A DNA stretch of 11,931 bases from a virus (IMGVR_UViG_2529292834_000013), one strand, 5' to 3'. Counted from the stretch's first letter, positions 1 to 11,931 are shown. Translations and numbers: made by a program. The notes: a model not told the origin generated them from the sequence alone.

Positions 1-892
<892 letters not shown>

Positions 893-906
893 CTTATTGA
901 TTTAAA

Positions 907-952
907 TGGTGCCGATAATAGGAGTCGAACCTACGACCTTCGCATTACGAAT
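907..952 (-). other. 3' 46 nt of a tRNA-Thr(CGU) gene (thrW-like), including anticodon loop, T-arm and CCA end; att-site remnant, not a functional tRNA
   Basis: Reverse complement of 907-952 reads TTCGTAATGCGAAGGTCGTAGGTTCGACTCCTATTATCGGCACCA: anticodon CGT in a loop, T-stem GTAGG/CCTAT around TTCGACT, acceptor 3' strand and CCA. Sequence beyond nt 952 does not continue as D-arm or acceptor 5' strand. Confidence 0.65.
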
Positions 953-1031
953 TATAAGAATCCGCTTCTAATTCAAAGCATTACCCCATCAACACTGCGC
1001 TCACACGTCCCACCACATCAAAACATGTAAA

Positions 1032-1071
1032 GCCTTGCAAGCCATTGCGAGGCTTTATGTGTCTCAGTTTT
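1032..1071. terminator. Candidate hairpin with T-rich flanks on both strands (possible bidirectional terminator)
   Basis: GCCTTGCAA (1032-1040), loop GCCA, TTGCGAGGC (1045-1053): 9-bp stem with one G-U pair, followed by TTTATGTGTCTCAGTTTTGT; on the other strand the stem is followed by TTTACATGTTTT. Weak. Confidence 0.25.
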
Positions 1072-1335
1072 GTCCCACCTTTTATTACGACTTGCATAGC
1101 CAATGAAGATAAACGTGACGACAAACGGCGCAGCAATCTTCCTTTCTTTCACACTTTCCCAACCCAGCATGTATACTTTTCTGCCATAACTAAAGTGAAT
1201 GCCTGTTATGAGCAACAAACAGGCATTAGCGCCGCTAGCATATTAGCTACCATTCGACTGCCACACTTAAGATTGATTTCTTAAGTATAACCCGGTTTCT
1301 AATACTACTTATATATTCAGCTCTGAGATTCATTT

Positions 1336-4300
1336 TTATCTCGTAAAGCTAGTTTTATGACTTCCTGTTAGCTGACTGTCTTCATAATAAAATGCTCCAC
1401 TAAACTCCTGTCGACCATAATGATGACTTGATATGAGTGAGCCCCCTATAACGCCCTTTTCACCTAATAATGTCCAAACGATTTCAAAACCATTGTCCCT
1501 TAACATTGTTAAAAATGGTTCTTTTTTAACAAGTAGATGCGGCTTTGAAGCATATACAGCTTCAGCTGCAAAGCAAACCATAGTTCCATTTTCATCATTG
1601 AAGCTACCCTCTACTTCCCCACTTTTTAATCCCATCTTTTCAAAGATTAAGTTACTAGGCTTCAAAAAATTCAAAGTTTCTATTTTTGATTTGTCGAACT
1701 CCTCTTCCCACAAATAATTAATCGAAGTGACACTAACATCAGCTATCTTAGCTCCAGACTCCCGGTCTGTTACCGAAGTCCAGTCAGATCCACCATAATA
1801 ATCTGATTTAAAAGACTTAAATGCTTCGGACCAATAGTACTCCCTATTAAATAATTGGTATCTATCAGTACATTCCGGCATCCACCTGCCCATAAAGTCT
1901 TGAGCTATTGCCCAACATCTAAAATTTTCAAATTCTTCAACTTTAACGATATAACTTCTGATCTGATACCAAACCTCTTTTCGTGGGTGCCCCCAATCAT
2001 CGTTTCCAATAATTTTTGGTTCTTTCCATGATGGATGACTTTCTAATACTATCCATTCATCACCATTATCATCTTTAACTTCAATAAAAGCATATGAATT
2101 AGTTATAGTAGTAGAACTTTTAACCCAGTCTTCATTAGAGCAAGTCCAATCAAACACTTCATCATTAAGCCACCACATTTCTTTATTGCTTATTTTTTTC
2201 GTTCCAGTTTCTTTAAGTAAGATAGTGGGATCTATATCTCTTACGTAAGGCTCCCATGGCCCTTGGTATGGATTTTCCTTTCGTTCGTCACCATAACCTT
2301 CAAAACGAGTAAAATTATCGGCTAGCCTTGCCATGTATTCATAATAAGCAATCCATTGGGATTTTTTACCAATCCGTTCTTGGAATGCCTCTCTACGTCC
2401 ACGTCCAGTTCCTATTTGTTGGTCAAAATTACCATGCTTCTCCGGATCCCAACCAAGCTCTATAACACGATTGAATATAAATTGTTGAGCTAGTCGAAGA
2501 TCAAAGTGTTTATCAGTTTCCAGCAGATTATTATTATGATCCAGGTATGGCTCTATTTCATTTTCAAACTCACTTAACAGATCGTATGACAATGAATTCT
2601 TAAATAATTTCTTGCTCGCCTTTATTTCTTCCTGTGCTTTTCTACCGACCACACGACCAAATTTAATTCCTTCGCATTTATCATCATAAATGAAAGGATC
2701 TGTGGCATCATACAAGTCTTTTTGTTGATCAGTTAGTTTACATTTGAAAGTTTTAAAAACTTGCTTACGGTCAACAGGGGTTTCATTAAACTTGCAACCA
2801 GACCAATCAGAATGATTATAATTTGTTCCAATAGTATATCGTGAAAAGTCACCATCTTCCATAATAGAGCTCCAGAGTTCCCGATAAGGTTCTTTATCAT
2901 AAAGGGACTCTAGTTCCTCTTTTGAAGGAATCTTGTCAGGCCAAATGCTGTTGTAGGGTGGTCTAGTCTTGGATAATTCAATGCTTTCAAGTTCCAATCC
3001 AAGATGATTAGCAAATTCAATAATCTCTCTAGCATAATCTCTAAGTAATATATTTGGATACACATACTTAGAACAAAATACCTTTTGGTAAACAGTTTCG
3101 GCTAAATATTTTAGTTCTTTAATATTATCAGTTCGCAATGTACAGCCTAATGCAACTGCAAATATTCTTTCCCAAACGTAAGGATCATTTACACCATAAA
3201 ACTTATCAATTATTTTTCTCAATACAGGAATTCTTGGCTCGAGTAAACTCACTAAAGCCTTAGTTGAGCAATCTCGAAGTTCTCGGTTACTAGAAGTTAA
3301 AAACCAGCATAAACTAGTTGCAACTAGCTCGATTGACTCATCCGAAACAAAGCTTTTATCTGTTCTGGCCCATGCCCAATCGATTAGATGCCTAAATGCT
3401 GAGTCTTCACTATATTTATATTTAAGTTCTGTAGTCCAAAACGAATCTCGATTTGCCAAAGAATAATCTTTTAGCCAATCATGCAAGAAATTAGCATTAA
3501 AGGGATGGCCAACTAAACCTGAAATAGAGATCACTGCCTCGAGGAAATGATCAAAACTATCTTTAAATTTAAAAACATGTTCATTGATGAAAGGTCTAAT
3601 TTTTTCGAAATAAATAGCCTTAATATCGCGCCATATCAAGCTATCAATAAAGGCTTCTAGTAATTTAAGATTATTGCTGAACTCCGGCAGAAATTCATAA
3701 AGCTCTTTTTCATACCTTTCTGGCAATTGAATAGACAACGCCTCTACTATTCCCGATTTTATATAAAAATCACATTCATCATGAAAATATTTTTTCAGAC
3801 GACCATCAGGCTTAAATTCACTTTCGATATTTTCAACATCATTTAATAAAAAATTAACAGTTAAATGATCATCAAACCTTTCAAAAGCCACATAAACTAC
3901 TTCCTCAGTAGAATTATCATCATTTCTCACTATGCCTTTAGTCAATAATCCTTCGTCAATCAAGGCGCTGAGGAAGGTTTTATCAGCAACATAATCATTA
4001 ACTACAGATTGAACCACTGAGTGAGCATCTTTAAGTGAAATACTATTACGACCAATCTCTAATTTGAATTTTATGATTTCATTGAGAGCATCTTTAACAA
4101 GAGGAAAACTGGGATCGAATGCATATTTTTTTGGCGATGCTAATGATTTATTTACCCCTTCAACTAAAAAGTTAAAAATATTTGAAATCCCATTAAATCC
4201 AACAGGCACTTTGGTTAAACCATTTTTCTTAATGCCTTCACACAATAACTTAAGAAATAGAGGATTTTTAAACTCTGGATTAAGGTTAGGAGATGAAGGC

Positions 4301-5790
4301 CTCTCAATATTGTAATAATCATAAAATAGACTAACCGCTTCCAACTCAACGTTCTGGAATCCAATATGTTCATGAATTTCAAAATTATTTCGCACAACAT
4401 TCTCATGTGAAATTGTTACATTTCTATATGTTGTTCTGACTGACATTATCAGACCAAGCCATTCAAAGCATCTGATTTCATCGACAAAACTGTTAATATT
4501 GTCATTCCAGAATTTATTTCCATTACCTTCATTAATAGCATCAATAAAAACTAAGACTCTTTTTCCTGTTTTTTTGCCATATAAATTCAGTTTTTCTAGG
4601 AATTCACGAGAAGTGATTTTAAGCTGTAATCTCTTGAAGATTTGTGACCATGGAGATTCATCTGAAGTAAGTTGTTGCCCTAGTATGAGTAGTGAAGGAT
4701 ACCCAGAAGCAATTCGATTTTTAATCACATCAGCCAGTAAATGAGACTTACCAATTCCTGCTTTTCCTTCGAGAAGTAAGAATGGGTTGTTAGCCAACTT
4801 CACTGTTGTTGAATTAATGAATATACGTAATTCATTGCACGCATAGTCAAATTCCCGAAGCATTCGCAGAGTAGATGAATACTTATCACTGTAATGCTTG
4901 GTTTCACCTACTTGCTCTGACTTTTCTCGGAGTTCCCACAATATTGATACCGCTCCGCCAATAGCTGTCTGGCAGCTAGAAACATAGTTATTAAATTTAT
5001 TTATAGGGATTTCATCTAATTTAGAAAAATTAATCTCCTGATATATATCAGAAATTTCTTTTAAGGACTGGTTTATTTCAAATAATTCTGAGGAAATTAC
5101 ATCGCAACTATGTAATTTCTTTCCAGCGACCAGAAAGCTATCTATATGCGAATAAAATATTTTAGAAAAATCATTAGTTCTACCGAGGCCATCAAATATC
5201 TCTGCTATTTCTAGCTTTACGTTGAGTTCGGGTGTGTATCGACCTCCCAAGTCAGCTATTGCTTGACTATTTTTTTCATTTAACCAATCATCACTTAAGT
5301 GAAAAGTTAGTTTCTCATCTATAGACCGTAAAATAAGTTTGACTTGAATGAGCTCTTCATTAATATCGAATATTTTTTCTTTATACGTTTCTTCGATATG
5401 TAGCTTTTTTAACTTCGAACAATTATTGATTTTTAATGATAACATCCCATAAAAAAGGCTGAGTTGTTGTTGAGTTGGGGGAGTGACGCTTGGATATTCT
5501 TTGAACTTGTCTAATAACATCTCTTTGTCAGGGAACTCTTTAAAAAGGATGTACTCATTCAACATCTCAAACAATGGTTTAGAATGATAAAATGGAATTG
5601 CTCCACTTTCTACTGGATATGTTTCTTCAAACTCAATTGCCGTCTCTTCAATTAGTTGATATAATCTATCCACATATTTTTCTGTGGGGAATAATGCTTT
5701 CTTAATCCAACTATATCCTTCTTGAGAAATGAATTGATCAATAAGTTTAGTTGCTACATAAGTTGCCACTGTAATTGATATGGGTTCCAT
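1336..5790 (-). CDS. Large (1484 aa) STAND-class P-loop NTPase with unassigned ~330-aa N-terminal domain and ~1000-aa C-terminal region; candidate Avs/bNACHT-like antiviral sensor
   Basis: Single uninterrupted 4455-nt ORF. Walker A LLLEGKAGIGKSHLL (about aa 340-355), Walker B KRVLVFIDAINEG (about aa 410-422, D-[GA]-x-[DN]-E form), and a downstream hhhTxR-like LIMSVRTT (about aa 447-454). Shine-Dalgarno GGGAGAAG sits 6 nt upstream of the ATG. Visibly more AT-rich than flanking prophage DNA (not computed). Confidence 0.85.
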   Translation of the reverse strand: MEPISITVATYVATKLIDQFISQEGYSWIKKALFPTEKYVDRLYQLIEETAIEFEETYPVESGAIPFYHSKPLFEMLNEYILFKEFPDKEMLLDKFKEYPSVTPPTQQQLSLFYGMLSLKINNCSKLKKLHIEETYKEKIFDINEELIQVKLILRSIDEKLTFHLSDDWLNEKNSQAIADLGGRYTPELNVKLEIAEIFDGLGRTNDFSKIFYSHIDSFLVAGKKLHSCDVISSELFEINQSLKEISDIYQEINFSKLDEIPINKFNNYVSSCQTAIGGAVSILWELREKSEQVGETKHYSDKYSSTLRMLREFDYACNELRIFINSTTVKLANNPFLLLEGKAGIGKSHLLADVIKNRIASGYPSLLILGQQLTSDESPWSQIFKRLQLKITSREFLEKLNLYGKKTGKRVLVFIDAINEGNGNKFWNDNINSFVDEIRCFEWLGLIMSVRTTYRNVTISHENVVRNNFEIHEHIGFQNVELEAVSLFYDYYNIERPSSPNLNPEFKNPLFLKLLCEGIKKNGLTKVPVGFNGISNIFNFLVEGVNKSLASPKKYAFDPSFPLVKDALNEIIKFKLEIGRNSISLKDAHSVVQSVVNDYVADKTFLSALIDEGLLTKGIVRNDDNSTEEVVYVAFERFDDHLTVNFLLNDVENIESEFKPDGRLKKYFHDECDFYIKSGIVEALSIQLPERYEKELYEFLPEFSNNLKLLEAFIDSLIWRDIKAIYFEKIRPFINEHVFKFKDSFDHFLEAVISISGLVGHPFNANFLHDWLKDYSLANRDSFWTTELKYKYSEDSAFRHLIDWAWARTDKSFVSDESIELVATSLCWFLTSSNRELRDCSTKALVSLLEPRIPVLRKIIDKFYGVNDPYVWERIFAVALGCTLRTDNIKELKYLAETVYQKVFCSKYVYPNILLRDYAREIIEFANHLGLELESIELSKTRPPYNSIWPDKIPSKEELESLYDKEPYRELWSSIMEDGDFSRYTIGTNYNHSDWSGCKFNETPVDRKQVFKTFKCKLTDQQKDLYDATDPFIYDDKCEGIKFGRVVGRKAQEEIKASKKLFKNSLSYDLLSEFENEIEPYLDHNNNLLETDKHFDLRLAQQFIFNRVIELGWDPEKHGNFDQQIGTGRGRREAFQERIGKKSQWIAYYEYMARLADNFTRFEGYGDERKENPYQGPWEPYVRDIDPTILLKETGTKKISNKEMWWLNDEVFDWTCSNEDWVKSSTTITNSYAFIEVKDDNGDEWIVLESHPSWKEPKIIGNDDWGHPRKEVWYQIRSYIVKVEEFENFRCWAIAQDFMGRWMPECTDRYQLFNREYYWSEAFKSFKSDYYGGSDWTSVTDRESGAKIADVSVTSINYLWEEEFDKSKIETLNFLKPSNLIFEKMGLKSGEVEGSFNDENGTMVCFAAEAVYASKPHLLVKKEPFLTMLRDNGFEIVWTLLGEKGVIGGSLISSHHYGRQEFSGAFYYEDSQLTGSHKTSFTR

Positions 5791-5796
5791 GATTAG

Positions 5797-5804
5797 CTTC
5801 TCCC
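5797..5804 (-). promoter_or_regulatory. Ribosome-binding site of the large NTPase gene
   Basis: Minus-strand GGGAGAAG with a 6-nt spacer before the ATG at 5790-5788. Confidence 0.5.
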
Positions 5805-6312
5805 AACAATTAAATTTTTACCAAGCGTTTATGCTTTCCAATAATTATTACATCTCACCGTAAAACATATTTATATGGTTTTAAACCTATCTGTAAATCT
5901 TGACACCTTGGCAAGAACCTAATCCTACATTTTAATATCAATCTATATAATATCGCCAGCGTCATAATAATCGGGCTTGTCATAGTTAAGTATTCGCCTC
6001 CGATATCCCAATGAGATAAGTAAGTCATAAGTGTTATAAATGAAAAGGTTACATTTTTCAAAGAGTTATTATGATGGAATATTATTCAAAACGCAATGTA
6101 GCTGAAACGAGTCTGAGTTTAACATCCGCTCCTAGTACATAGTAGTCCTAGGGACAGTGGCGTAAAGTCATAGATGGCCGGTGGGAGGTGATGGAAATCC
6201 TCTCATGCAAAAAATACATAAAATCGATAACGGCTGGAAATCATTCAATACTCGCACTATCGAAAGTTCACCAGCCAACCGCGCACAATCTTGCATACGA
6301 CATGCTACGGTT

Positions 6313-6867
6313 TCATTTATCTCCGACCGGAAACTTCTTATACAGTGTCGATATACCAACATCATAGATGATCGCCACCTTCTGGCGAGGAACGCCTGAT
6401 GCAATTAATCGCCCGGCCTGCGCCCATTGTTCTGGTGTAAGTTTGGGACGACGTCCCCCAATTCGTCCCTGTGCGCGAGCAGCTTCCAGTCCAGCTTTTG
6501 TTCGTTCAACAATCAGTTCTCGTTCCATTTCAGCCAGGGCACCCATCACATGAAAGAAAAAACGCCCCATCGGTGTGCTGGTATCAATAGCATCCGTCAG
6601 GCTGCGAAAATTAACGCCACGTTCGCGCAACTCCTCAACCAGAATGACCAGATGCCGCATACTACGCCCCAGCCGATCCAGTTTCCAGACCACCAGAGTG
6701 TCACCTGCCGATAATGTCCTGAGCAGTTTTTTCAGTCCCGGTCTTTCGGACTTCGTACCGCTTATCTTGTCTTCAAAAATCAGTTCACATCCTACACAGT
6801 TCAACGCATTACGTTGTAGATCGGTGTTCTGGTCATTTGTTGATACGCGAACATAGCCAATAAGCAT
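6313..6867 (-). CDS. pin: Serine recombinase, DNA invertase of the Pin/Gin/Hin/Cin family (184 aa, apparently intact)
   Basis: Starts MLIGYVRVSTNDQNTDLQRNAL (catalytic Ser in VRVSTNDQ), has DTLVVWKLDRLGRSM and MGRFFFHVMGALAEMERELI, and ends with the HTH ...VAIIYDVGISTLYKKFPVGDK. Very close to e14 Pin / Mu Gin as I recall them. The ORF-track N-terminal extension (MASFLLLPGGST) is rejected in favour of the canonical MLIGY start at 6867. Confidence 0.9.
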   Translation of the reverse strand: MLIGYVRVSTNDQNTDLQRNALNCVGCELIFEDKISGTKSERPGLKKLLRTLSAGDTLVVWKLDRLGRSMRHLVILVEELRERGVNFRSLTDAIDTSTPMGRFFFHVMGALAEMERELIVERTKAGLEAARAQGRIGGRRPKLTPEQWAQAGRLIASGVPRQKVAIIYDVGISTLYKKFPVGDK

Positions 6868-6893
6868 GGTAGATCCCCCAGGTAAAAGCAGGA

Positions 6894-7391
6894 ATGATGC
6901 CATTTGCTCGTTATTTCTGCATTTTCATAAACCTTGGTTTGGGAGAAGGTGCTCCAGCTATTGGCGTTCCGTTCTTCTGGCCGTCCGCTGCAATGCCAAA
7001 TACTGTAATCGACAGCTGGTCCAGTATGGTGTTTTTGAAGTTCAACGGCGCGAAATTCTCTGCCACTGATTATCCTGTGCTGGCGAAAGTGTTTCCTTCG
7101 CTGGTATTACCTGAAGCCCGCGGTGATTTCATTCGTATCTGGGATGACGGGCGAGGTGCAGACGGTGGTCGCGAATTATTAAGCTGGCAGGCAGCTACAA
7201 ACTTTTCTCAGTTTGCCGGGAATATAGGCGAAGGGGCGGGACACGCAATTAACTTTCATGATGGCATCGCCGGAAATCAGCCAGGATTTTCACGATTTAA
7301 TTTCACCAGTAACTCTGTGGGTGATGGTGTGAATTTTGTTGCTGTCAGACCGCGAAATATTGCATTTAACTTTCTGGTGAGGGCTAAATAA
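6894..7391 (+). CDS. Phage tail-fibre protein, C-terminal variable (receptor-binding) domain, variant A; lacks a constant N-terminal shaft
   Basis: ORF contains GVPFFWPS...YPVLAKVFPSLVLPEARGDFIRIWDDGRGADGGR, the motif set of Mu S / e14 Stf-type fibre C-termini. Its stop overlaps the downstream tfa start (TAATG at 7389-7393). The first ~19 codons (MMPFARYFCIFIN...) lie inside the inverted repeat; the true translational start is uncertain. Confidence 0.65.
   Translation: MMPFARYFCIFINLGLGEGAPAIGVPFFWPSAAMPNTVIDSWSSMVFLKFNGAKFSATDYPVLAKVFPSLVLPEARGDFIRIWDDGRGADGGRELLSWQAATNFSQFAGNIGEGAGHAINFHDGIAGNQPGFSRFNFTSNSVGDGVNFVAVRPRNIAFNFLVRAK
6922..6947. other. gix/hix/pix-like 26-bp invertase crossover site (left)
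   Basis: TTTTCATAAACC-TT-GGTTTGGGAGAA: two 12-bp inverted half-sites around a 2-bp core, matching the TTnnnnnAAACC-NN-GGTTTnnnnnAA pattern of Gin/Hin/Pin sites. Confidence 0.6.
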
Positions 7392-7984
7392 TGAAACCTG
7401 TTTTTGATGAAAATGGGCTGGCTACAGTGCCGGGCGATATGCGTTGTTTTTATTATGATGCTGAAACATCTGAGTATACGGGCTGGTCTGATGAATATAT
7501 TAATACTGGCGTAAGTATGCCCGCCTGTTCCACTGGTATTGACCCTGGCGAAAACATTCCGGGAAGAGTGGCAGTATTTACAGGTAAGGGATGGCGCCAT
7601 GAAGAAGACCATCGCAATGAGACTGTTTACTTAATCGAAAATGGCGCAGCTGTTACAGTGGATTATATCGGTGCCATCAAAGACGGTTATGTCACGATTT
7701 CACCGTTAACGCCATACGATAAATGGGATGGTGAGAAATGGGTGACAGACACTGAGGCACAACACAGTGCCGCAGTAGACGCGGCAGAAGCACAGCGCCA
7801 GTCACTGATTGATGCAGCAATGGCTTCCATTAGTCTGATTCAGCTGAAATTACAGGCCGGACGGAAACTGACTCAGGCAGAAACAACCCGACTTAACGCC
7901 GTGCTGGATTACATTGACGCGGTGACGGCAACAGATACCAGCACCGCGCCGGATATCATCTGGCCTGAACTGCCGGAGGCGTAG
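7391..7984 (+). CDS. Tail-fibre assembly protein (Tfa/U-like), variant A
   Basis: 197 aa, translationally coupled to the fibre domain upstream; C-terminal DTSTAPDIIWPELP motif shared with Tfa chaperones. Confidence 0.8.
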   Translation: MKPVFDENGLATVPGDMRCFYYDAETSEYTGWSDEYINTGVSMPACSTGIDPGENIPGRVAVFTGKGWRHEEDHRNETVYLIENGAAVTVDYIGAIKDGYVTISPLTPYDKWDGEKWVTDTEAQHSAAVDAAEAQRQSLIDAAMASISLIQLKLQAGRKLTQAETTRLNAVLDYIDAVTATDTSTAPDIIWPELPEA

Positions 7985-8384
7985 GCCATTCAATATCGGG
8001 TGCTGTTGACGTATCAACACGCATCAGCAGCACACGGTATTTCTTCCATTGGGTGAGAGTTGTAGCTTCTTCATCAGTTGCGATATCAGCATCAACAGCA
8101 TCCTGACGCCAGGATATTTCACTGTCAGCTTTTTCCCGTAATTGGGATTTTTTAACTTCAGCAATAGCTATTAATTCCTTTTTGGTCGGCTGAGGAATAT
8201 CTATCAGTGCTGGTTTTCCATTCAGTGTTCCAATCTGTTTTCCTGGTGGAATATCCATAAATAACTTCTTATGTTCTTCCTCACTGACTATTACACCATC
8301 ATCAGGCCACAGACCTGATGCCTCAAATTTTTCTTTCTCCGATATGGGGAAAAAGCCATTTGCTTTAGCGCTCCATACGTACAT
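7956..8384 (-). CDS. Tail-fibre assembly protein (Tfa-like), variant B
   Basis: 142 aa; N-terminus MYVWSAKANGFFP and C-terminus WKKYRVLLMRVDTSTAPDIEWP are typical of e14/lambdoid Tfa proteins. Convergent with variant A, with 29-bp 3' overlap. Confidence 0.8.
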   Translation of the reverse strand: MYVWSAKANGFFPISEKEKFEASGLWPDDGVIVSEEEHKKLFMDIPPGKQIGTLNGKPALIDIPQPTKKELIAIAEVKKSQLREKADSEISWRQDAVDADIATDEEATTLTQWKKYRVLLMRVDTSTAPDIEWPTPPAVQAR

Positions 8385-8385
8385 A

Positions 8386-8721
8386 TCAATACCCCACCGC
8401 TATAATGTCCACATTAAATCCCCCGGGACCTGCCTGCCAGATGCTGGCCCCTGTTAATGATTTTGTTTGATGAACAACCGCCACATTTGCTGGCGATTGT
8501 GTTTCAGTTGTTACAGTACCGATATCATTCCAGTTAATTGAGATGGAATAGTTCGTTGTTGTAAACGACCGGGGGAAAGTTATGTGTCTTACATTGGTGC
8601 CGACAGGAAATCCAAGATAAACACGCTGAATTATCATTCCTCCAGGTAACATAACCCAGTTAGCACCTTCTCCAAAACCAACATTTATGAAAATGCAGAA
8701 ATAACGAGCAAATGGCATCAT
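8386..8721 (-). CDS. Phage tail-fibre protein, alternative C-terminal variable domain, variant B; lacks a constant N-terminal shaft
   Basis: Begins with the same repeat-encoded peptide MMPFARYFCIFINVGFGEGA as variant A, then diverges completely; sits directly upstream of and coupled to tfa variant B. Identity rests on position and architecture, not a recognised motif. Confidence 0.55.
   Translation of the reverse strand: MMPFARYFCIFINVGFGEGANWVMLPGGMIIQRVYLGFPVGTNVRHITFPRSFTTTNYSISINWNDIGTVTTETQSPANVAVVHQTKSLTGASIWQAGPGGFNVDIIAVGY
8668..8693. other. gix/hix/pix-like invertase crossover site (right), one half-site degenerate
   Basis: TTCTCCAAAACC-AA-CATTTATGAAAA on the + strand: the left half fits the consensus; the other half reads AAATG where AAACC is expected. 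Confidence 0.5.
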
Positions 8722-8747
8722 TCCTGCTTTTACCTGGGGGATCTACC

Positions 8748-9266
8748 ATGCTTATTGGCTATGTTCGCGTATCAACAAATGACCAGAACACCGATCTACA
8801 ACGTAATGCGTTGAACTGTGCAGGATGCGAGCTGATTTTTGAAGACAAGATAAGCGGTACAAAGTCCGAAAGGCTGGGACTGAAAAAACTGCTCAGGACA
8901 TTATCGGCAGGTGACACTCTGGTTGTCTGGAAGCTGGATCGGCTGGGGCGTAGTATGCGGCATCTGGTCATTCTGGTTGAGGAGTTGCGCGAACGTGGCG
9001 TTAATTTTCGCAGCCTGACGGATGCTATTGATACCAGCACGCCGATGGGGCGTTTTTTCTTTCATGTGATGGGTGCCCTGGCTGAAATGGAACGAGAACT
9101 GATTGTTGAACGAACAAAAGCTGGACTGGAAGCTGCTCGCGCACAGGGACGAATTGGTGGACGTCGTCCCAAACTTACACCAGAACAATGGGCACAAGCC
9201 GGACGATTAATTGCATCAGGAGTTCCTCGCCAGAAGGTGGCGATCATTTATGATGTTGGCGTATAG
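8748..9266 (+). CDS. pin: Second copy of the Pin-type DNA invertase, inverted relative to the first; frameshifted near the 3' end so the HTH recognition helix is missing (172 aa; probably defective or a pseudogene)
   Basis: About 98% identical to the left copy through ...QKVAIIYDVG, then V-stop instead of ISTLYKKFPVGDK. Substitutions P->L (KSERLGLKK) and V->A (NCAGCE). SD-like GGGGGA about 8 nt upstream of ATG 8748. Confidence 0.8.
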   Translation: MLIGYVRVSTNDQNTDLQRNALNCAGCELIFEDKISGTKSERLGLKKLLRTLSAGDTLVVWKLDRLGRSMRHLVILVEELRERGVNFRSLTDAIDTSTPMGRFFFHVMGALAEMERELIVERTKAGLEAARAQGRIGGRRPKLTPEQWAQAGRLIASGVPRQKVAIIYDVGV

Positions 9267-9359
9267 TCTTTGTATAAGAAGTTTCCAGTCGGAGATAAAT
9301 GAAACCGTAGCACGTCGTATGCAAGATCGTGCTGCGGTTTATGCTTATCACTTAAAGAC

Positions 9360-10229
<870 letters not shown>

Positions 10230-10310
10230 CTAAGTCTTTGAATTTACATAGTACAAAAAAGATACTTTTTCCTCATAATGTGAATTAATTTTATGTTTCG
10301 TTTTATGATT

Positions 10311-10376
10311 GGACCGGTCTCGAAAACCGGAGTAGGGGCAACTCTACCGGGGGTTCAAATCCCCCTCTCTCCGCCA
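10311..10376 (+). other. 3' 66 nt of a tRNA-Ser(CGA) gene (serU-like), anticodon arm to CCA; att-site remnant, not a functional tRNA
   Basis: GGACCGGTCTCGAAAACCGGAGTAGGGGCAACTCTACCGGGGGTTCAAATCCCCCTCTCTCCGCCA: anticodon stem CCGGT/ACCGG with loop CTCGAAA (anticodon CGA), long variable arm, T-arm GGGGG-TTCAAAT-CCCCC, acceptor 3' strand and CCA. Upstream sequence does not provide the acceptor 5' strand or D-arm. Confidence 0.65.
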
Positions 10377-10951
10377 CTTTATCAATGACTTATCTCCCGA
10401 CTTCCCGCCTTGCTTTTCCTAAACAGAACAATCGTAGAATATTCTTGAAGGGTTAGATCGTCACTGTTTTCTGTTCGATACTGTGACATTCAGCACTTGA
10501 TTCGCTATGGATCTGACAGGAAGGTTTCGAGCGAAAATCTGCAGTTATTCAGTCGTTTTCTTATCGGTCACCATTATTCTTTTAGACATTGATCCTACAA
10601 AGCTGCCGCAAAGTTGGTGGTGGGAACTGAAGTTGCGTAGAGAAGGGGTCAATACCCGGAGGCAAACATGGGCTGGCAAAAGTGTAGCGGTATTAGGCGA
10701 AGCTATTTAGCCTAGTTATATTTTATGAAAACTTGATATCATATAAGTGTCTTACTTATTGGCTGTAAATAAGTTTTTCCTAAGGAATTGTTTCTTGAGT
10801 ATCATTTGTAACTGTAACGGAATTTATAATCCTTTGCTTTATTGTTACGGTATTTTTTATCACACCCTATTTTTTATGTGGTTTTTTATACTGAAGTTTG
10901 GCAAAGTGAACTTTATATGCATATACTTCATCCTAGTTTCAGTTAAATTGG

Positions 10952-11704
10952 GTGGATGATATGGCAACTACATGTTCAGTTATATTGATTTTGGAGTCCT
11001 TTGATGTTTATTTAGGAAAAGAGATTGTGTTTCTGGAGAGAGGTTCATCTGTACTTGTCGACTCTAGCTCTAGAGATTTTTTCCTGACATATCCTGAAAG
11101 AGTGATAGTGGCGGATTTTGGCGCTGAGTTTATTAGTCGCTATTTGAAAGCTAATAACTTAAGGGATATTTCTGATTGTAGGGAATATCCATCTTATTTA
11201 AAAATAAACTTTGCTGACTTCAGTTTAATTAAAGGATTAATTAGTTGGGCTAATCACTGTGCTGAATACATAGAAATTTTTGATGAGTCTATTGCTTTTA
11301 CATGTCTCTCTGCATTTTCTTCTGAAAAACAATTTGGAGTATTTCTGTTTGGATGTTTGAAAAGCACAGGGGCTAAAGTTAAAACGATTATTCATACGGA
11401 TTTATCTGCACCATGGCGTCTTAAGGATATATCATCAAGATTATATCTCAGCGAAAGTTTACTAAAGAGGAAATTGAAAGAAGAGGGGGTATCATTCAGT
11501 AAGATCATACTTGATGAGAGGATGCAAATGGCTGAATATTTACTCAGCACTCGTTGTTATCCTATTAGTAAAGTAGCTAAGGTCTGTGGTTATGCCAGTG
11601 TCTCATACTTTACTTATGTATTTAGACGTTATTTTGGTGTTTCTCCAAGTCAATACTCTCAGAGGAGTTCAGAAAGTAAAATTCTTACTCACCAGGGAAT
11701 CTGA
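10952..11704 (+). CDS. AraC/XylS-family transcriptional regulator (YdeO/AppY/EnvY-like)
   Basis: C-terminal double HTH: PWRLKDISSRLYLSESLLKRKLKEEGVSFSKIILDERMQMAEYLL...VAKVCGYASVSYFTYVFRRYFGVSPSQY. AT-rich. The true start may be the second ATG at 10961 (better spacing from GGTGG at 10946-10950). Confidence 0.8.
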   Translation: MDDMATTCSVILILESFDVYLGKEIVFLERGSSVLVDSSSRDFFLTYPERVIVADFGAEFISRYLKANNLRDISDCREYPSYLKINFADFSLIKGLISWANHCAEYIEIFDESIAFTCLSAFSSEKQFGVFLFGCLKSTGAKVKTIIHTDLSAPWRLKDISSRLYLSESLLKRKLKEEGVSFSKIILDERMQMAEYLLSTRCYPISKVAKVCGYASVSYFTYVFRRYFGVSPSQYSQRSSESKILTHQGI

Positions 11705-11708
11705 TCAT

Positions 11709-11931
11709 TGTTCTTGCCCCCTTATTTCCAGACAGGGGGTGTATCTTAAGTTAACGTTACCCGCTGACGTCGATATTCTCGCAGAGAGCGATAACCCAAC
11801 GCACTGTGCGGATGGTTTTCATTGTAATGTTCGATCGCCACTGCAAGATTATGCAATGCCGTTCTTACATTCGGTTTCGGCATGAACGCGATGTAGTCTT
11901 CCTTCATCGTTTTCACGAACCTTTCTGCCAT
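11709..11931. mobile_element. End of an IS2-group (IS3-family) insertion sequence (partial; continues beyond the window)
   Basis: Terminal sequence TGTTCTTGCCCCCTTATTTCCAGAC resembles the IS2 terminus as I recall it (TGGATTTGCCCCTATATTTCCAGAC), followed by the transposase 3' end. Exact terminus is approximate. Confidence 0.55.
11746..11931 (-). CDS. IS3-family (IS2-like) transposase OrfB, C-terminal 61 codons; partial, upstream part outside the window
   Basis: Translation ...[55 protein letters not shown] carries the conserved [10 protein letters not shown] motif of IS3-family transposase C-termini. Confidence 0.75.

What the first reader, a model, noticed from the sequence alone, without database searches (positions are those of the whole stretch)
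6277..9339. Invertible tail-fibre cassette bracketed by two inverted copies of the invertase gene
In Mu (gin), P1 (cin), e14 (pin) and Salmonella (hin) there is one invertase gene and the invertible segment is bounded on its other side by the constant part of the fibre gene. Here each end of the 1.7-kb cassette (fibre domain A, tfa A, tfa B, fibre domain B) abuts a crossover site followed by an outward-reading invertase gene, forming a ~675-bp inverted repeat around the cassette. No constant fibre shaft exists at either end, so inversion cannot build a full fibre gene. The arms are diverged (substitutions plus a frameshift), so this is not simply one sequence read twice.
Basis: seen in the sequence. 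Interest (0 to 1): 0.75.

Follow-up and report, generated by a model that had tools for sequence, protein, structure and literature searches.

The report
Orphan invertible cassette, two invertase genes
In a lineage of diarrhoeal E. coli, the defence-gene-carrying ends of two prophages are joined head to head across one 1.7-kb tail-fibre-tip cassette, which still flips precisely between two back-to-back invertase genes although no fibre gene is left to use it; it is an evolutionary curiosity, not a new mechanism.

Summary
Arms 6277-6953 and 8662-9339 are a 677-bp inverted repeat, about 96% identical. Each arm holds a pinE-type serine invertase gene reading outward and a 26-bp crossover site. 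Between the arms lie two fibre-tip domains and two tfa genes. There is no constant fibre part.

It is not an artefact. Eighteen complete E. coli genomes, from ETEC-like strains including O6:H16, carry it at one locus. Eleven have the window's orientation, six are flipped, and one is garbled. In every flipped genome examined, the exchange maps to a 7-bp interval containing the central TT. Arms and cassette are otherwise identical. This is conservative Pin-type inversion that has recurred at least two or three times.

One detail is wrong: there is no frameshift. Substitutions create an in-frame TAG that removes the right Pin's recognition helix. The left Pin is intact.

The arms are not a local duplication. 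The left flank (Avs2) and the right flank (PD-T4-3 GIY-YIG, AraC) match the invertase ends of two single-invertase, e14-like prophages found intact elsewhere. The arms are being homogenised by gene conversion.

The cassette most likely has no function and is a seam between two retained defence genes. A StfE2-like anti-phage role is not excluded.

The parts
6277..6953 (.). Left arm of the inverted repeat: 3' flank of pin, the pin gene, its upstream region and the crossover site
6313..6867 (-). Left invertase gene, intact, 184 aa; 175 of 184 residues match K-12 PinE. The protein is WP_000905042.1.
   Evidence: Pfam Resolvase E 1e-51 plus a full HTH_7. Best solved relative is Gin, 3UJ3, E 3.5e-93. 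Identity to PinE.
6922..6947 (+). Left crossover site (pix), 12+2+12 bp, core TT at 6934-6935
   Evidence: It aligns with the e14 pinE-proximal site.
6783..6846 (-). Candidate Fis-bound recombinational enhancer in the 5' part of left pin (GTATCAACAAATGAC ... GTGTAGGATGTGAAC)
   Evidence: Consensus scan. The region is 96% identical to the K-12 pinE 5' region. Its function is inferred, not shown.
6894..7391 (+). ORF of 165 aa: a 19-aa leader (MMPFARYFCIFINLGLGEG) read out of the pin upstream region, then fibre tip A (StfE-like). The constant part is missing.
7391..7984 (+). Tail fibre assembly gene tfaA (197 aa)
   Evidence: Caudo_TAP, E 1.4e-27
7956..8384 (-). Tail fibre assembly gene tfaB (142 aa)
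   Evidence: Caudo_TAP, E 6.6e-33
8386..8721 (-). ORF of 111 aa: leader MMPFARYFCIFINVGFGEG, then fibre tip B (Gp53-like C domain). Same build as e14 StfE2.
   Evidence: Gp53-like_C, E 3.9e-6
8668..8693 (-). Right crossover site (pix), core AA at 8680-8681 on the plus strand
8662..9339 (.). Right arm of the inverted repeat
8748..9266 (+). Right invertase gene, cut to 172 aa by an in-frame TAG at 9264-9266. It lacks the last 12 residues (STLYKKFPVGDK), which form the HTH recognition helix. The protein is WP_000904963.1.
   Evidence: The HTH_7 match stops at profile position 34 of 45
8732..8811 (.). Gene-conversion patch specific to this window: nine positions of the right arm carry the left-arm bases. 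All other genomes examined keep the divergent bases.
1336..5790 (-). Avs2 (AVAST type 2) defence gene, the cargo downstream of the left invertase gene
   Evidence: PADLOC Avs2, E 0, 1747 bits; RefSeq annotation
9360..10133 (-). PD-T4-3 (LEM-3-like GIY-YIG) defence gene, the cargo downstream of the right invertase gene
   Evidence: PADLOC PD-T4-3, E 2.4e-140; Pfam LEM-3_GIY-YIG
10952..11704 (+). AraC-family regulator, part of the same cargo block as PD-T4-3 in single-invertase prophages
241..892 (+). 3' fragment of a tyrosine integrase gene, cut at 241 by IS100 (1-240)
   Evidence: Phage_integrase, E 1.6e-34; IS100 end

Best explanation
The locus is the remnant of two e14-like (Mu-type tail) prophages, joined head to head at their invertase ends across a single invertible fibre-tip cassette. 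One end carries Avs2 downstream of its invertase gene. The other carries PD-T4-3 and an AraC regulator. All structural genes, including both constant fibre parts, are gone.

The cassette still inverts by the ordinary Pin/Gin/Hin mechanism. The steps below follow from established knowledge of this family and were not tested here:
1. Invertase dimers bind the two 26-bp sites.
2. A Fis-bound enhancer in the 5' part of the invertase gene assembles the synapse.
3. Both sites are cut at the central TT.
4. One half rotates 180 degrees and the ends are religated.

The intact left Pin is the likely enzyme. The right Pin has lost its DNA-recognition helix. Inversion changes nothing of consequence: it swaps two near-identical 19-codon leaders between tips A and B. 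The cassette and its invertase genes are therefore most likely neutral passengers, kept because they sit between two selected defence genes. Gene conversion is slowly making the two 677-bp arms more alike.

Shown: the structure, the orientation polymorphism, the exchange point, the colinearity of the flanks, and the conversion patch.
Inferred: which enzyme acts, the role of Fis, how the fusion arose, and the lack of function.
For: Structure.

Not an artefact: 18 of 5426 complete E. coli genomes, from several laboratories, hold at least 80% of the locus at one chromosomal site. The truncated Pin allele is listed in 256 blocks of the assembly collection.

Active, site-specific inversion:
- Eleven genomes have the window's orientation and six are flipped.
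- All flipped genomes carry the junctions 'Avs2-side outer half + TT + B-side inner half' and 'GIY-side outer half + TT + A-side inner half'. Unflipped genomes carry the reciprocal pair.
- Markers 6932/6933 stay with the flank and marker 6941 moves with the cassette. The exchange therefore lies in 6934-6940, around the core TT.
- When each genome is split at the core, the left arm, cassette and right arm of E1433, 2014EL-1346-6 and FDAARGOS_1077 have zero differences from E54.
- Orientation cuts across sublineages. The 6795T allele is in 254D-1 (flipped) and in FORC_031 and 360D-1 (unflipped). Avs2 allele WP_000433377 is in B2C (unflipped) and in three flipped strains.

Enzyme: the left Pin is full length and shares 175 of 184 residues with PinE. 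These genomes hold no other megablast-detectable pin copy.

Origin:
- Window 692-6949 is colinear with a prophage ordered int'-avs2-pin-cassette-fibre-ymfQ-baseplate (L006).
- Window 6929-11931 is colinear, at 97.6-97.8%, with prophages ordered baseplate-ymfQ-fibre-cassette-pin-GIY-YIG-AraC (L003, L007).
- The two homologies overlap only in the left crossover site.

Conversion: a 9-SNP patch is present in this window. The right arm is only 91-92% identical to the pins of L003 and L007, while both of its flanks are 99.3-99.5% identical to those prophages. Its centre carries the left-arm haplotype.

Cargo: PADLOC identifies Avs2 and PD-T4-3. e14 has mcrA in the same position.
Against: - No experiment or read-level data from a single culture was available. 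Flipping is inferred from comparing assemblies.
- The pin alleles are mosaic. A pin gene 3 nt different from the left arm sits next to GIY-YIG in strain TK3896. The arms therefore cannot be assigned cleanly to either parental type, and the route of the fusion cannot be reconstructed. It could be Pin-mediated at a crossover site, RecA-mediated within the cassette, or an inversion, deletion or phage-genome integration.
- The reciprocal product (fibre - cassette - fibre) was not sought.
- 'No function' is an argument from parsimony. Both leader-fused ORFs are intact in most genomes, which fits either recent origin or selection.
- The Fis sites were located only by a loose consensus, and their resemblance to the hin enhancer rests on my memory of its sequence.
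Confidence: 0.78

Rival explanations
1. Exapted defence module. The two leader-fused fibre tips are expressed from the invertase-proximal regions and act like e14 StfE2, coating or masking receptors to block phage adsorption. The tip with the Gp53-like domain is the main candidate. Avs2, the cassette and PD-T4-3 would then form a three-part defence islet, and inversion would swap which tip lies behind which promoter.
For: Kirigo et al. 2025 (PMC12529663) report that inversion of the e14 P segment creates StfE2. StfE2 is the 18-aa stfE leader fused to a gp53-like C domain, and it blocks T2 adsorption. ORF 8386-8721 has the same build and a leader matching 16 of 20 residues. The locus lies between two bona fide defence genes. 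Both ORFs are intact in the window and in most genomes.
Against: Beyond the leader there is no detectable similarity between tip B and the e14 StfP tip. No promoter-like site precedes either leader ORF, and the number of promoter-like hits equals the shuffled expectation. Here both orientations encode essentially the same two proteins, so inversion would not act as a switch. Some assemblies carry 1-nt deletions in the cassette, though these may be sequencing errors. Hitch-hiking between two selected genes explains retention without any function.
Confidence: 0.1
2. The cassette is flipped by general homologous recombination between the 677-bp arms, not by the invertase.
For: The arms are long and about 96% identical, enough for RecA. 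Gene conversion between them has demonstrably occurred.
Against: In every flipped genome checked, all arm markers from 6932 outward stay with their flank and only the inner half-site marker 6941 moves. This covers 6 complete genomes and 3 unscaffolded draft assemblies. The exchange therefore lies in a 7-bp interval that contains the core. A crossover placed at random in 677 bp would fall there about 1% of the time per event, and at least 2-3 independent events are required.
Confidence: 0.04
3. Local inverted duplication of one invertase gene within a single prophage, for example by template switching, which replaced the constant fibre part.
For: The arms end exactly where the sequence downstream of the invertase gene stops being shared. 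The two proteins differ at only 5 of 184 aligned positions, counting the stop codon.
Against: The sequence immediately outside each arm is colinear over kilobases with the invertase-distal cargo of two different single-invertase prophages. A duplication would not bring in 5.6 kb of Avs2 context that is found joined to a pin gene in the same way elsewhere. In the genomes without the window's conversion patch, the arms differ at 36-40 positions.
Confidence: 0.05
4. Assembly artefact: a collapsed or chimerised invertible region.
For: Invertible regions do confuse assemblers. E1620 has a garbled cassette with tip A at both ends and 54 gaps. Two drafts that looked rearranged (L102, L103) turned out to be N-gapped scaffolds.
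Against: The same structure, base for base, is in 17 other complete genomes from different laboratories and platforms, and in unscaffolded short-read contigs of 28-34 kb. The arms carry fixed, flank-linked differences.
Confidence: 0.02

Closest known systems
Invertible P segment and pinE of the cryptic prophage e14 (E. coli K-12)
   Same: The invertase shares 175 of 184 residues with PinE. The crossover site and the 5' part of the invertase gene are about 96% identical. The cassette has the same plan of tip, tfa, tfa', tip'. The silent tip starts with the same short leader, MPFACYFFIFINVGLGEG. A defence gene follows the invertase gene: mcrA in e14, Avs2 or PD-T4-3 here.
   Different: e14 has one invertase gene. 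Its other crossover site lies inside stfP, whose roughly 100-aa constant part receives either tip. Here that side is occupied by a second, inverted invertase gene, so neither orientation makes a fibre. Tips A and B differ in sequence from StfE and StfP.
G segment/Gin of phage Mu and C segment/Cin of phage P1
   Same: Same enzyme family; Gin is the best solved relative, E 3.5e-93. From my own knowledge, not tested here: they share the 26-bp sites with a 2-bp core, an enhancer within the invertase gene and a host-range switch. P1 also has long (about 0.6 kb) inverted repeats around its segment.
   Different: In Mu and P1 the repeats consist of fibre-gene sequence and there is one invertase gene. 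No phage record among 50,697 and no plasmid among 72,556 holds at least 80% of the double structure.
Hin plus Fin in Salmonella, and PinQ/PinR/PinE acting on e14
   Same: More than one invertase gene in a genome can serve one invertible segment (PMC12529663, which cites Kutsukake 2006).
   Different: Those invertase genes are unlinked and lie in different prophages. Here the two genes are the two borders of the segment, and one of them is probably dead.
Multiple-inversion systems (Min of p15B and similar)
   Same: Fibre-tip cassettes shuffled by a Din-family invertase.
   Different: Those systems have more than two crossover sites. The window has exactly two. A possible multi-site region flanked by two diverged invertase genes was seen in a draft genome of Trabulsiella odontotermitis (L029), but it is unreliable.

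Membership tests
Din-family (Gin/Hin/Cin/Pin) DNA inversion system | Small serine recombinase with an N-terminal catalytic domain and a C-terminal HTH, close to known invertases | tested here: met
   Left copy: Resolvase, E 1e-51, plus a full HTH_7. Gin 3UJ3, E 3.5e-93. 175 of 184 residues match PinE. The right copy lacks the last 12 residues.
Din-family (Gin/Hin/Cin/Pin) DNA inversion system | Two 26-bp crossover sites in inverted orientation with identical central dinucleotides | tested here: met
   Sites at 6922-6947 and 8668-8693, core TT / AA. There are exactly two matches in the window. They align with the e14 site.
Din-family (Gin/Hin/Cin/Pin) DNA inversion system | Conservative, reciprocal exchange at the central dinucleotide | tested here: met
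   Flipped and unflipped genomes differ only by the swap at the core. The exchange is bracketed to 6934-6940, and there are zero other differences in three strains.
Din-family (Gin/Hin/Cin/Pin) DNA inversion system | Fis-dependent enhancer within the 5' part of the invertase gene | tested here: inconclusive
   Two Fis-like 15-mers lie 49 nt apart at the position expected from hin. The hin comparison is from memory. The region is 96% identical to K-12 pinE. Binding is not testable here.
Din-family (Gin/Hin/Cin/Pin) DNA inversion system | The segment carries two alternative fibre C-termini with their assembly genes, in opposite orientations | tested here: met
   Tips A and B and two Caudo_TAP genes
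Phage host-range switch of the Mu G / P1 C / e14 P type | A constant fibre N-terminal part abuts one crossover site, so inversion changes the expressed fibre | tested here: not met
   Only 18-19 leader codons precede each site. Intact relatives have a constant part of about 100 aa.
Phage host-range switch of the Mu G / P1 C / e14 P type | A single invertase gene outside one end of the segment | tested here: not met
   Two outward-reading copies
Recombinase-activated adsorption block (PinQ/StfE2; Kirigo et al. 2025) | An ORF made of the invertase-proximal leader fused to a gp53-like C domain | tested here: met
   ORF 8386-8721: the leader matches 16 of 20 residues of StfE2 and carries a Gp53-like_C domain
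Recombinase-activated adsorption block (PinQ/StfE2; Kirigo et al. 2025) | The ORF exists only in one orientation, so inversion acts as the switch | tested here: not met
   Both orientations encode leader+A and leader+B. The leaders differ at 2 residues.
Recombinase-activated adsorption block (PinQ/StfE2; Kirigo et al. 2025) | The protein is made and blocks phage adsorption | not testable with these tools
   No expression or phenotype data. No promoter-like site upstream.
Multiple-inversion system / shufflon | More than two crossover sites giving several arrangements | tested here: not met
   Two sites only. Only two arrangements were seen among the genomes.

The most novel reading that the evidence does not exclude
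The fibre-less, double-invertase cassette is not debris. It is a domesticated part of a three-gene defence islet (Avs2 | cassette | PD-T4-3). Its leader-fused receptor-binding tips are expressed and interfere with phage adsorption, as reported for e14 StfE2. The head-to-head arrangement makes that protein available in both orientations. A related, more modest novelty is that the fusion itself was catalysed by the invertase between crossover sites of two different prophages. That would make DNA invertases agents of prophage chimerisation and defence-island assembly.
Probability: 0.1. Interest if true: 0.65.

Novelty: new variant of a known kind. Interest (0 to 1): 0.33.

Why it matters
The locus is a clean natural record of how prophages decay. 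The structural genes are lost, the defence cargo at the invertase end is kept, and two such ends can be joined across the invertible cassette.

It also shows that a Pin-type switch can keep flipping with base-pair precision long after it has lost its purpose. Long inverted repeats that contain the recombinase gene itself are homogenised by gene conversion.

In practice, this locus will confuse assemblers and annotation. RefSeq calls tip A an 'integrase', and one complete genome has a garbled cassette.

If the StfE2-type reading were right, it would extend a recently proposed defence principle to a new architecture. The evidence for that reading is weak.

Tried and rejected
1. Two assemblies that seemed to show further rearrangements were rejected. 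In L102 the avs2-integrase block appeared inverted against right pin. In L103 the cassette appeared transposed into avs2. Both contain runs of N exactly at the odd junctions, so they are scaffolds.

2. The promoter/terminator scan gave no promoter-like site for the leader ORFs or for pin, and the total number of hits equalled the shuffled expectation. It was uninformative.

3. A strict Fis consensus found only one site per arm. The pair was recognised only with a loose pattern plus my memory of the hin enhancer. I kept this as inconclusive.

4. A scan of one genome per species with the Pin protein returned 79 loci, 50 of them with at least 4 kb upstream. Only one showed a second outward invertase gene: L029 from Trabulsiella. 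That draft has ambiguous bases at the crossover sites and the locus is cut by the flank limit, so I do not count it as a second example.

5. I tried to assign the left arm to the Avs2-type prophage and the right arm to the GIY-YIG-type prophage. This failed. The left-arm allele occurs next to GIY-YIG in TK3896 with only 3 differences, and the right arm is nearer to the Avs2-linked allele of L006. Only the flanks can be assigned.

6. Literature searches for two invertase genes flanking a segment found nothing relevant.

7. I did not look for the reciprocal product (fibre - cassette - fibre) elsewhere in the ETEC genomes, because the tools list only one place per record.

Full report
OBSERVATION

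The window contains one outstanding repeat. It is an inverted repeat with arms 6283-6953 and 8662-9332, 671 nt long, 96% complementary and 1708 nt apart. A gapped alignment extends the arms to 6277-6953 and 8662-9339. They differ by 27 substitutions and one 1-nt indel at the outer edge. The next longest repeat in the window is 33 nt, so this is not chance.

Each arm holds a 555-nt serine-recombinase gene reading away from the centre. The left gene is 6313-6867 on the minus strand. It encodes 184 aa with a Resolvase domain and a complete HTH_7 domain. The right gene is 8748-9266 on the plus strand. It encodes 172 aa, and its HTH_7 match stops at profile position 34 of 45.

Between the arms lie four ORFs:
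- fibre tip A, 6894-7391, plus strand
- tfaA, 7391-7984, plus strand
- tfaB, 7956-8384, minus strand
- fibre tip B, 8386-8721, minus strand, with a Gp53-like_C domain

The right copy has no frameshift. A cluster of substitutions at 9260-9270 turns GTATCG... into GTATAG, which gives an in-frame TAG at 9264-9266. The frame continues unchanged after the stop. The truncation removes STLYKKFPVGDK. By homology with Hin and Gin, and from my own knowledge, this is the recognition helix of the DNA-binding domain.

CROSSOVER SITES AND FAMILY

Just inside each arm is a 26-bp site of the Din-family type:
- left, 6922-6947: TTTTCATAAACC|TT|GGTTTGGGAGAA
- right, 8668-8693, reverse complement: TTTTCATAAATG|TT|GGTTTTGGAGAA

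These are the only two such sites in the window. The sites and the first 170 nt of both invertase genes align at about 96% with the pinE-proximal site and the pinE gene of the K-12 cryptic prophage e14. The left protein shares 175 of 184 residues with PinE. Its best solved relative is Mu Gin, 3UJ3, E 3.5e-93.

Two Fis-like 15-mers lie 49 nt apart in the 5' coding region of each copy. This is where the hin enhancer lies according to my memory of its sequence. I treat this only as consistent with the family, not as a test.

NO CONSTANT FIBRE PART

In intact relatives the fibre gene encodes 248 aa. Its constant part of about 100 aa ends ...ALENLGLGEG exactly at the crossover site and is followed by tip A (L007). 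In the window both tips are preceded only by a 19-codon leader, MMPFARYFCIFIN(L/V)G(L/F)GEG. This leader is simply the reading frame running out of the invertase upstream region. It is the same leader that starts the silent stfE pseudogene of e14. Inversion therefore cannot build a fibre.

THE STRUCTURE IS REAL, AND IT FLIPS

A megablast of 5900-9700 against 5426 complete E. coli genomes found 18 that hold at least 80% of the locus. All have it at the same chromosomal site, between a thrW-side prophage remnant and yagP'-paoDCBA-yagU. All are ETEC-like strains from several laboratories, including O6:H16 strains, TW10598, B2C and FORC_031.

Eleven match the query end to end. Six match only over 6277-9339 and on the opposite strand relative to their flanks, at 97.9% identity. 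That is the figure expected if the cassette is flipped and each arm is aligned to the other arm.

The three arm differences near the site give a fine map:
- Markers 6932/6933 (CC on the Avs2 side, TG on the GIY-YIG side) stay with their flank.
- Marker 6941 (G next to tip A, T next to tip B) moves with the cassette.

All six flipped complete genomes and three unscaffolded draft contigs carry exactly the two recombinant junctions. All unflipped genomes carry the parental pair. The exchange therefore lies in 6934-6940, around the central TT.

I then cut each genome at the core and compared the parts. The left arm, the reverse-complemented cassette and the right arm of E1433, 2014EL-1346-6 and FDAARGOS_1077 have no difference at all from E54. 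The 1-nt deletions in TW10598, B2C and E8 look like sequencing errors.

Orientation does not follow sublineages:
- The 6795T allele of left pin is in 254D-1 (flipped) and in FORC_031 and 360D-1 (unflipped).
- Avs2 allele WP_000433377 is in B2C (unflipped) and in three flipped strains.

At least two or three independent inversions are needed, all at the same 7-bp interval. A RecA crossover placed at random in a 677-bp arm would fall there about 1% of the time per event. This is conservative site-specific inversion.

These genomes hold no other megablast-detectable pin copy. The intact left Pin is therefore the likely enzyme. Distant invertases are not excluded. Kirigo et al. report that PinQ and PinR invert the e14 segment, with 38% identity between PinE and PinQ (PMC12529663).

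ORIGIN

The two arms are not a duplication made in place. To the left, window 692-6949 is colinear with strain UID2309220003 at 95.1%. Its order is yagU - int' - avs2 - pin - cassette - fibre - ymfQ - baseplate. To the right, window 6929-11931 is colinear at 97.6-97.8% with Z1323HEC0423 and NADC1036. Their order is head - sheath - tube - tape measure - baseplate - ymfQ - fibre - tfa - tfa' - tip' - pinE - GIY-YIG - AraC - IS3 fragment. The two homologies overlap only in the left crossover site.

Both parental types are e14-like prophages with Mu-type tails, one invertase gene, and a defence gene downstream of it. PADLOC identifies the 1484-aa protein as Avs2 (E 0) and the GIY-YIG protein as PD-T4-3 (E 2.4e-140). 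e14 has mcrA in this position.

In the ETEC genomes the early region of a prophage, from the integrase to a truncated rusA, is still present to the left. It is followed by IS66, an integrase fragment, avs2 and left pin. All late genes are gone.

The simplest reading is that two invertase ends were joined across one cassette and the rest was deleted. The joining could have been Pin-mediated recombination between crossover sites of two co-resident or incoming elements. It could also have been RecA-mediated recombination within homologous cassettes. I cannot choose between these routes, and I did not search for a reciprocal fibre - cassette - fibre product.

The arms themselves cannot be assigned to a parent:
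- A pin gene with only 3 differences from the left arm lies next to GIY-YIG in TK3896.
- The right arm is closest to the Avs2-linked allele of UID2309220003.

CONCERTED EVOLUTION OF THE ARMS

The right arm is only 91-92% identical to the pin genes of L003 and L007. Yet the sequences immediately on both sides of it are 99.3-99.5% identical to those prophages. Its central part carries the left-arm haplotype. The window itself has a further tract. Nine positions at 8732-8811 carry the left-arm bases, whereas all 17 other genomes and all drafts examined keep the divergent bases. The 96% identity is therefore partly secondary, produced by gene conversion between the inverted arms.

WHAT IT DOES

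Inversion exchanges two leaders that differ at two residues, so it has no obvious output. The most economical view is a neutral, still-active switch retained as the seam between two selected defence genes.

The alternative worth stating comes from Kirigo et al. 2025 (PMC12529663). In e14, inversion creates StfE2, which is the stfE leader fused to a gp53-like C domain, and StfE2 blocks T2 adsorption. ORF 8386-8721 has exactly this build and sits in a defence context.

Four points count against this reading:
- Only the leader is similar to StfE2.
- No promoter-like site is seen upstream.
- Both orientations encode the same proteins, so there is no switch.
- Retention needs no function.

I give it about 10%.

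HOW UNUSUAL IT IS

None of 50,697 phage records and none of 72,556 plasmids holds at least 80% of the structure. Among 50 species-representative Pin loci with enough upstream sequence, only one showed a second outward invertase gene. It is a Trabulsiella draft with ambiguous bases at its crossover sites. Full-text searches found no description of an invertible segment bordered by two invertase genes.

The mechanism is entirely that of a known family. Two defining features of the phage host-range switch are tested and not met: a constant fibre part and a single invertase gene. I therefore class the locus as a new variant of a known kind, of modest interest.

ARTEFACTS ENCOUNTERED

- E1620 has IS100 in right pin (target 9072-9076). 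Its cassette consensus is garbled, with tip A at both ends and 54 gaps. This is probably a polished mixture of both orientations.
- L102 and L103 looked like further rearrangements but are N-gapped scaffolds.
- L103 nevertheless contains both GIY-side junction types, which hints at mixed orientations within one culture.

Noticed in passing
window 1-240 and 241-892: The first 240 bases are the 3' end of IS100 (IstB C-terminus). They are 100% identical to the IS100 copy that interrupts right pin in strain E1620. This IS100 truncates a tyrosine-integrase gene at 241. The complete ETEC genomes lack this insertion; their integrase runs 134 nt further and then meets IS66. The window's genome is therefore a distinct member of the lineage.
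   Followed up: partly
window 1336-5790, 9360-10133; L009 7347-8180; L097 6315-6962: The position immediately downstream of the pin gene in e14-like prophages behaves as a cargo site for defence genes. It holds mcrA in e14, Avs2 in one prophage type, PD-T4-3 (GIY-YIG) plus an AraC regulator in another, and an unannotated 215-aa ORF in JNEC-KY180. Homology between the types ends about 10-35 nt after the pin stop codon.
   Followed up: partly
window 8732-8811: A 9-SNP tract of the right arm is converted to the left-arm sequence. Only this window's genome has it. Unconverted markers bound it at the right-arm positions that pair with 6794 and 6932/6933 (about 8821 and 8682/8683).
   Followed up: yes
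L015 (E1620) 2523-4101 and 4530-6433: IS100 is inserted in right pin with a 5-bp target duplication (window 9072-9076). The cassette consensus has tip A at both ends and many indels. It looks like a long-read consensus of a culture with mixed orientations.
   Followed up: partly
L103 (GCA_033843605.1) 5700-5830 and 620-2588: This scaffolded draft contains both GIY-side junction types. It also has an Avs2-side junction in which the G marker (6941) is linked to tip B. That is not expected from exchange at the core. It may be an assembly chimera or a rare exchange outside the core.
   Followed up: partly
L029 (Trabulsiella odontotermitis NZ_JNGH01000101.1) 2-5540: A second invertase copy reads outward 4.6 kb from the first, with arms about 82% identical over 425 nt. 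The region between them has several short inverted repeats, duplicated fibre tips and a P2 gpH-like constant part. Ambiguous bases sit at the repeat borders. This may be an independent double-invertase, multi-site region.
   Followed up: partly
window 6948-7391 (L001 10031-10492; L003 8717-9463): RefSeq/PGAP names fibre tip A, and the full 248-aa fibre in intact prophages, 'integrase'. The protein has no integrase domain: Pfam finds nothing, and it aligns with e14 StfE. This is a propagated mis-annotation.
   Followed up: yes
L005 (strain I4) 10014-11202: In a wastewater isolate, the same avs2-pin junction (99% identical) is cut within pin by IS26. A resistance region follows it (floR, tet(A), ISCR2). 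The invertase end with Avs2 therefore also survives in other rearranged contexts.
   Followed up: no
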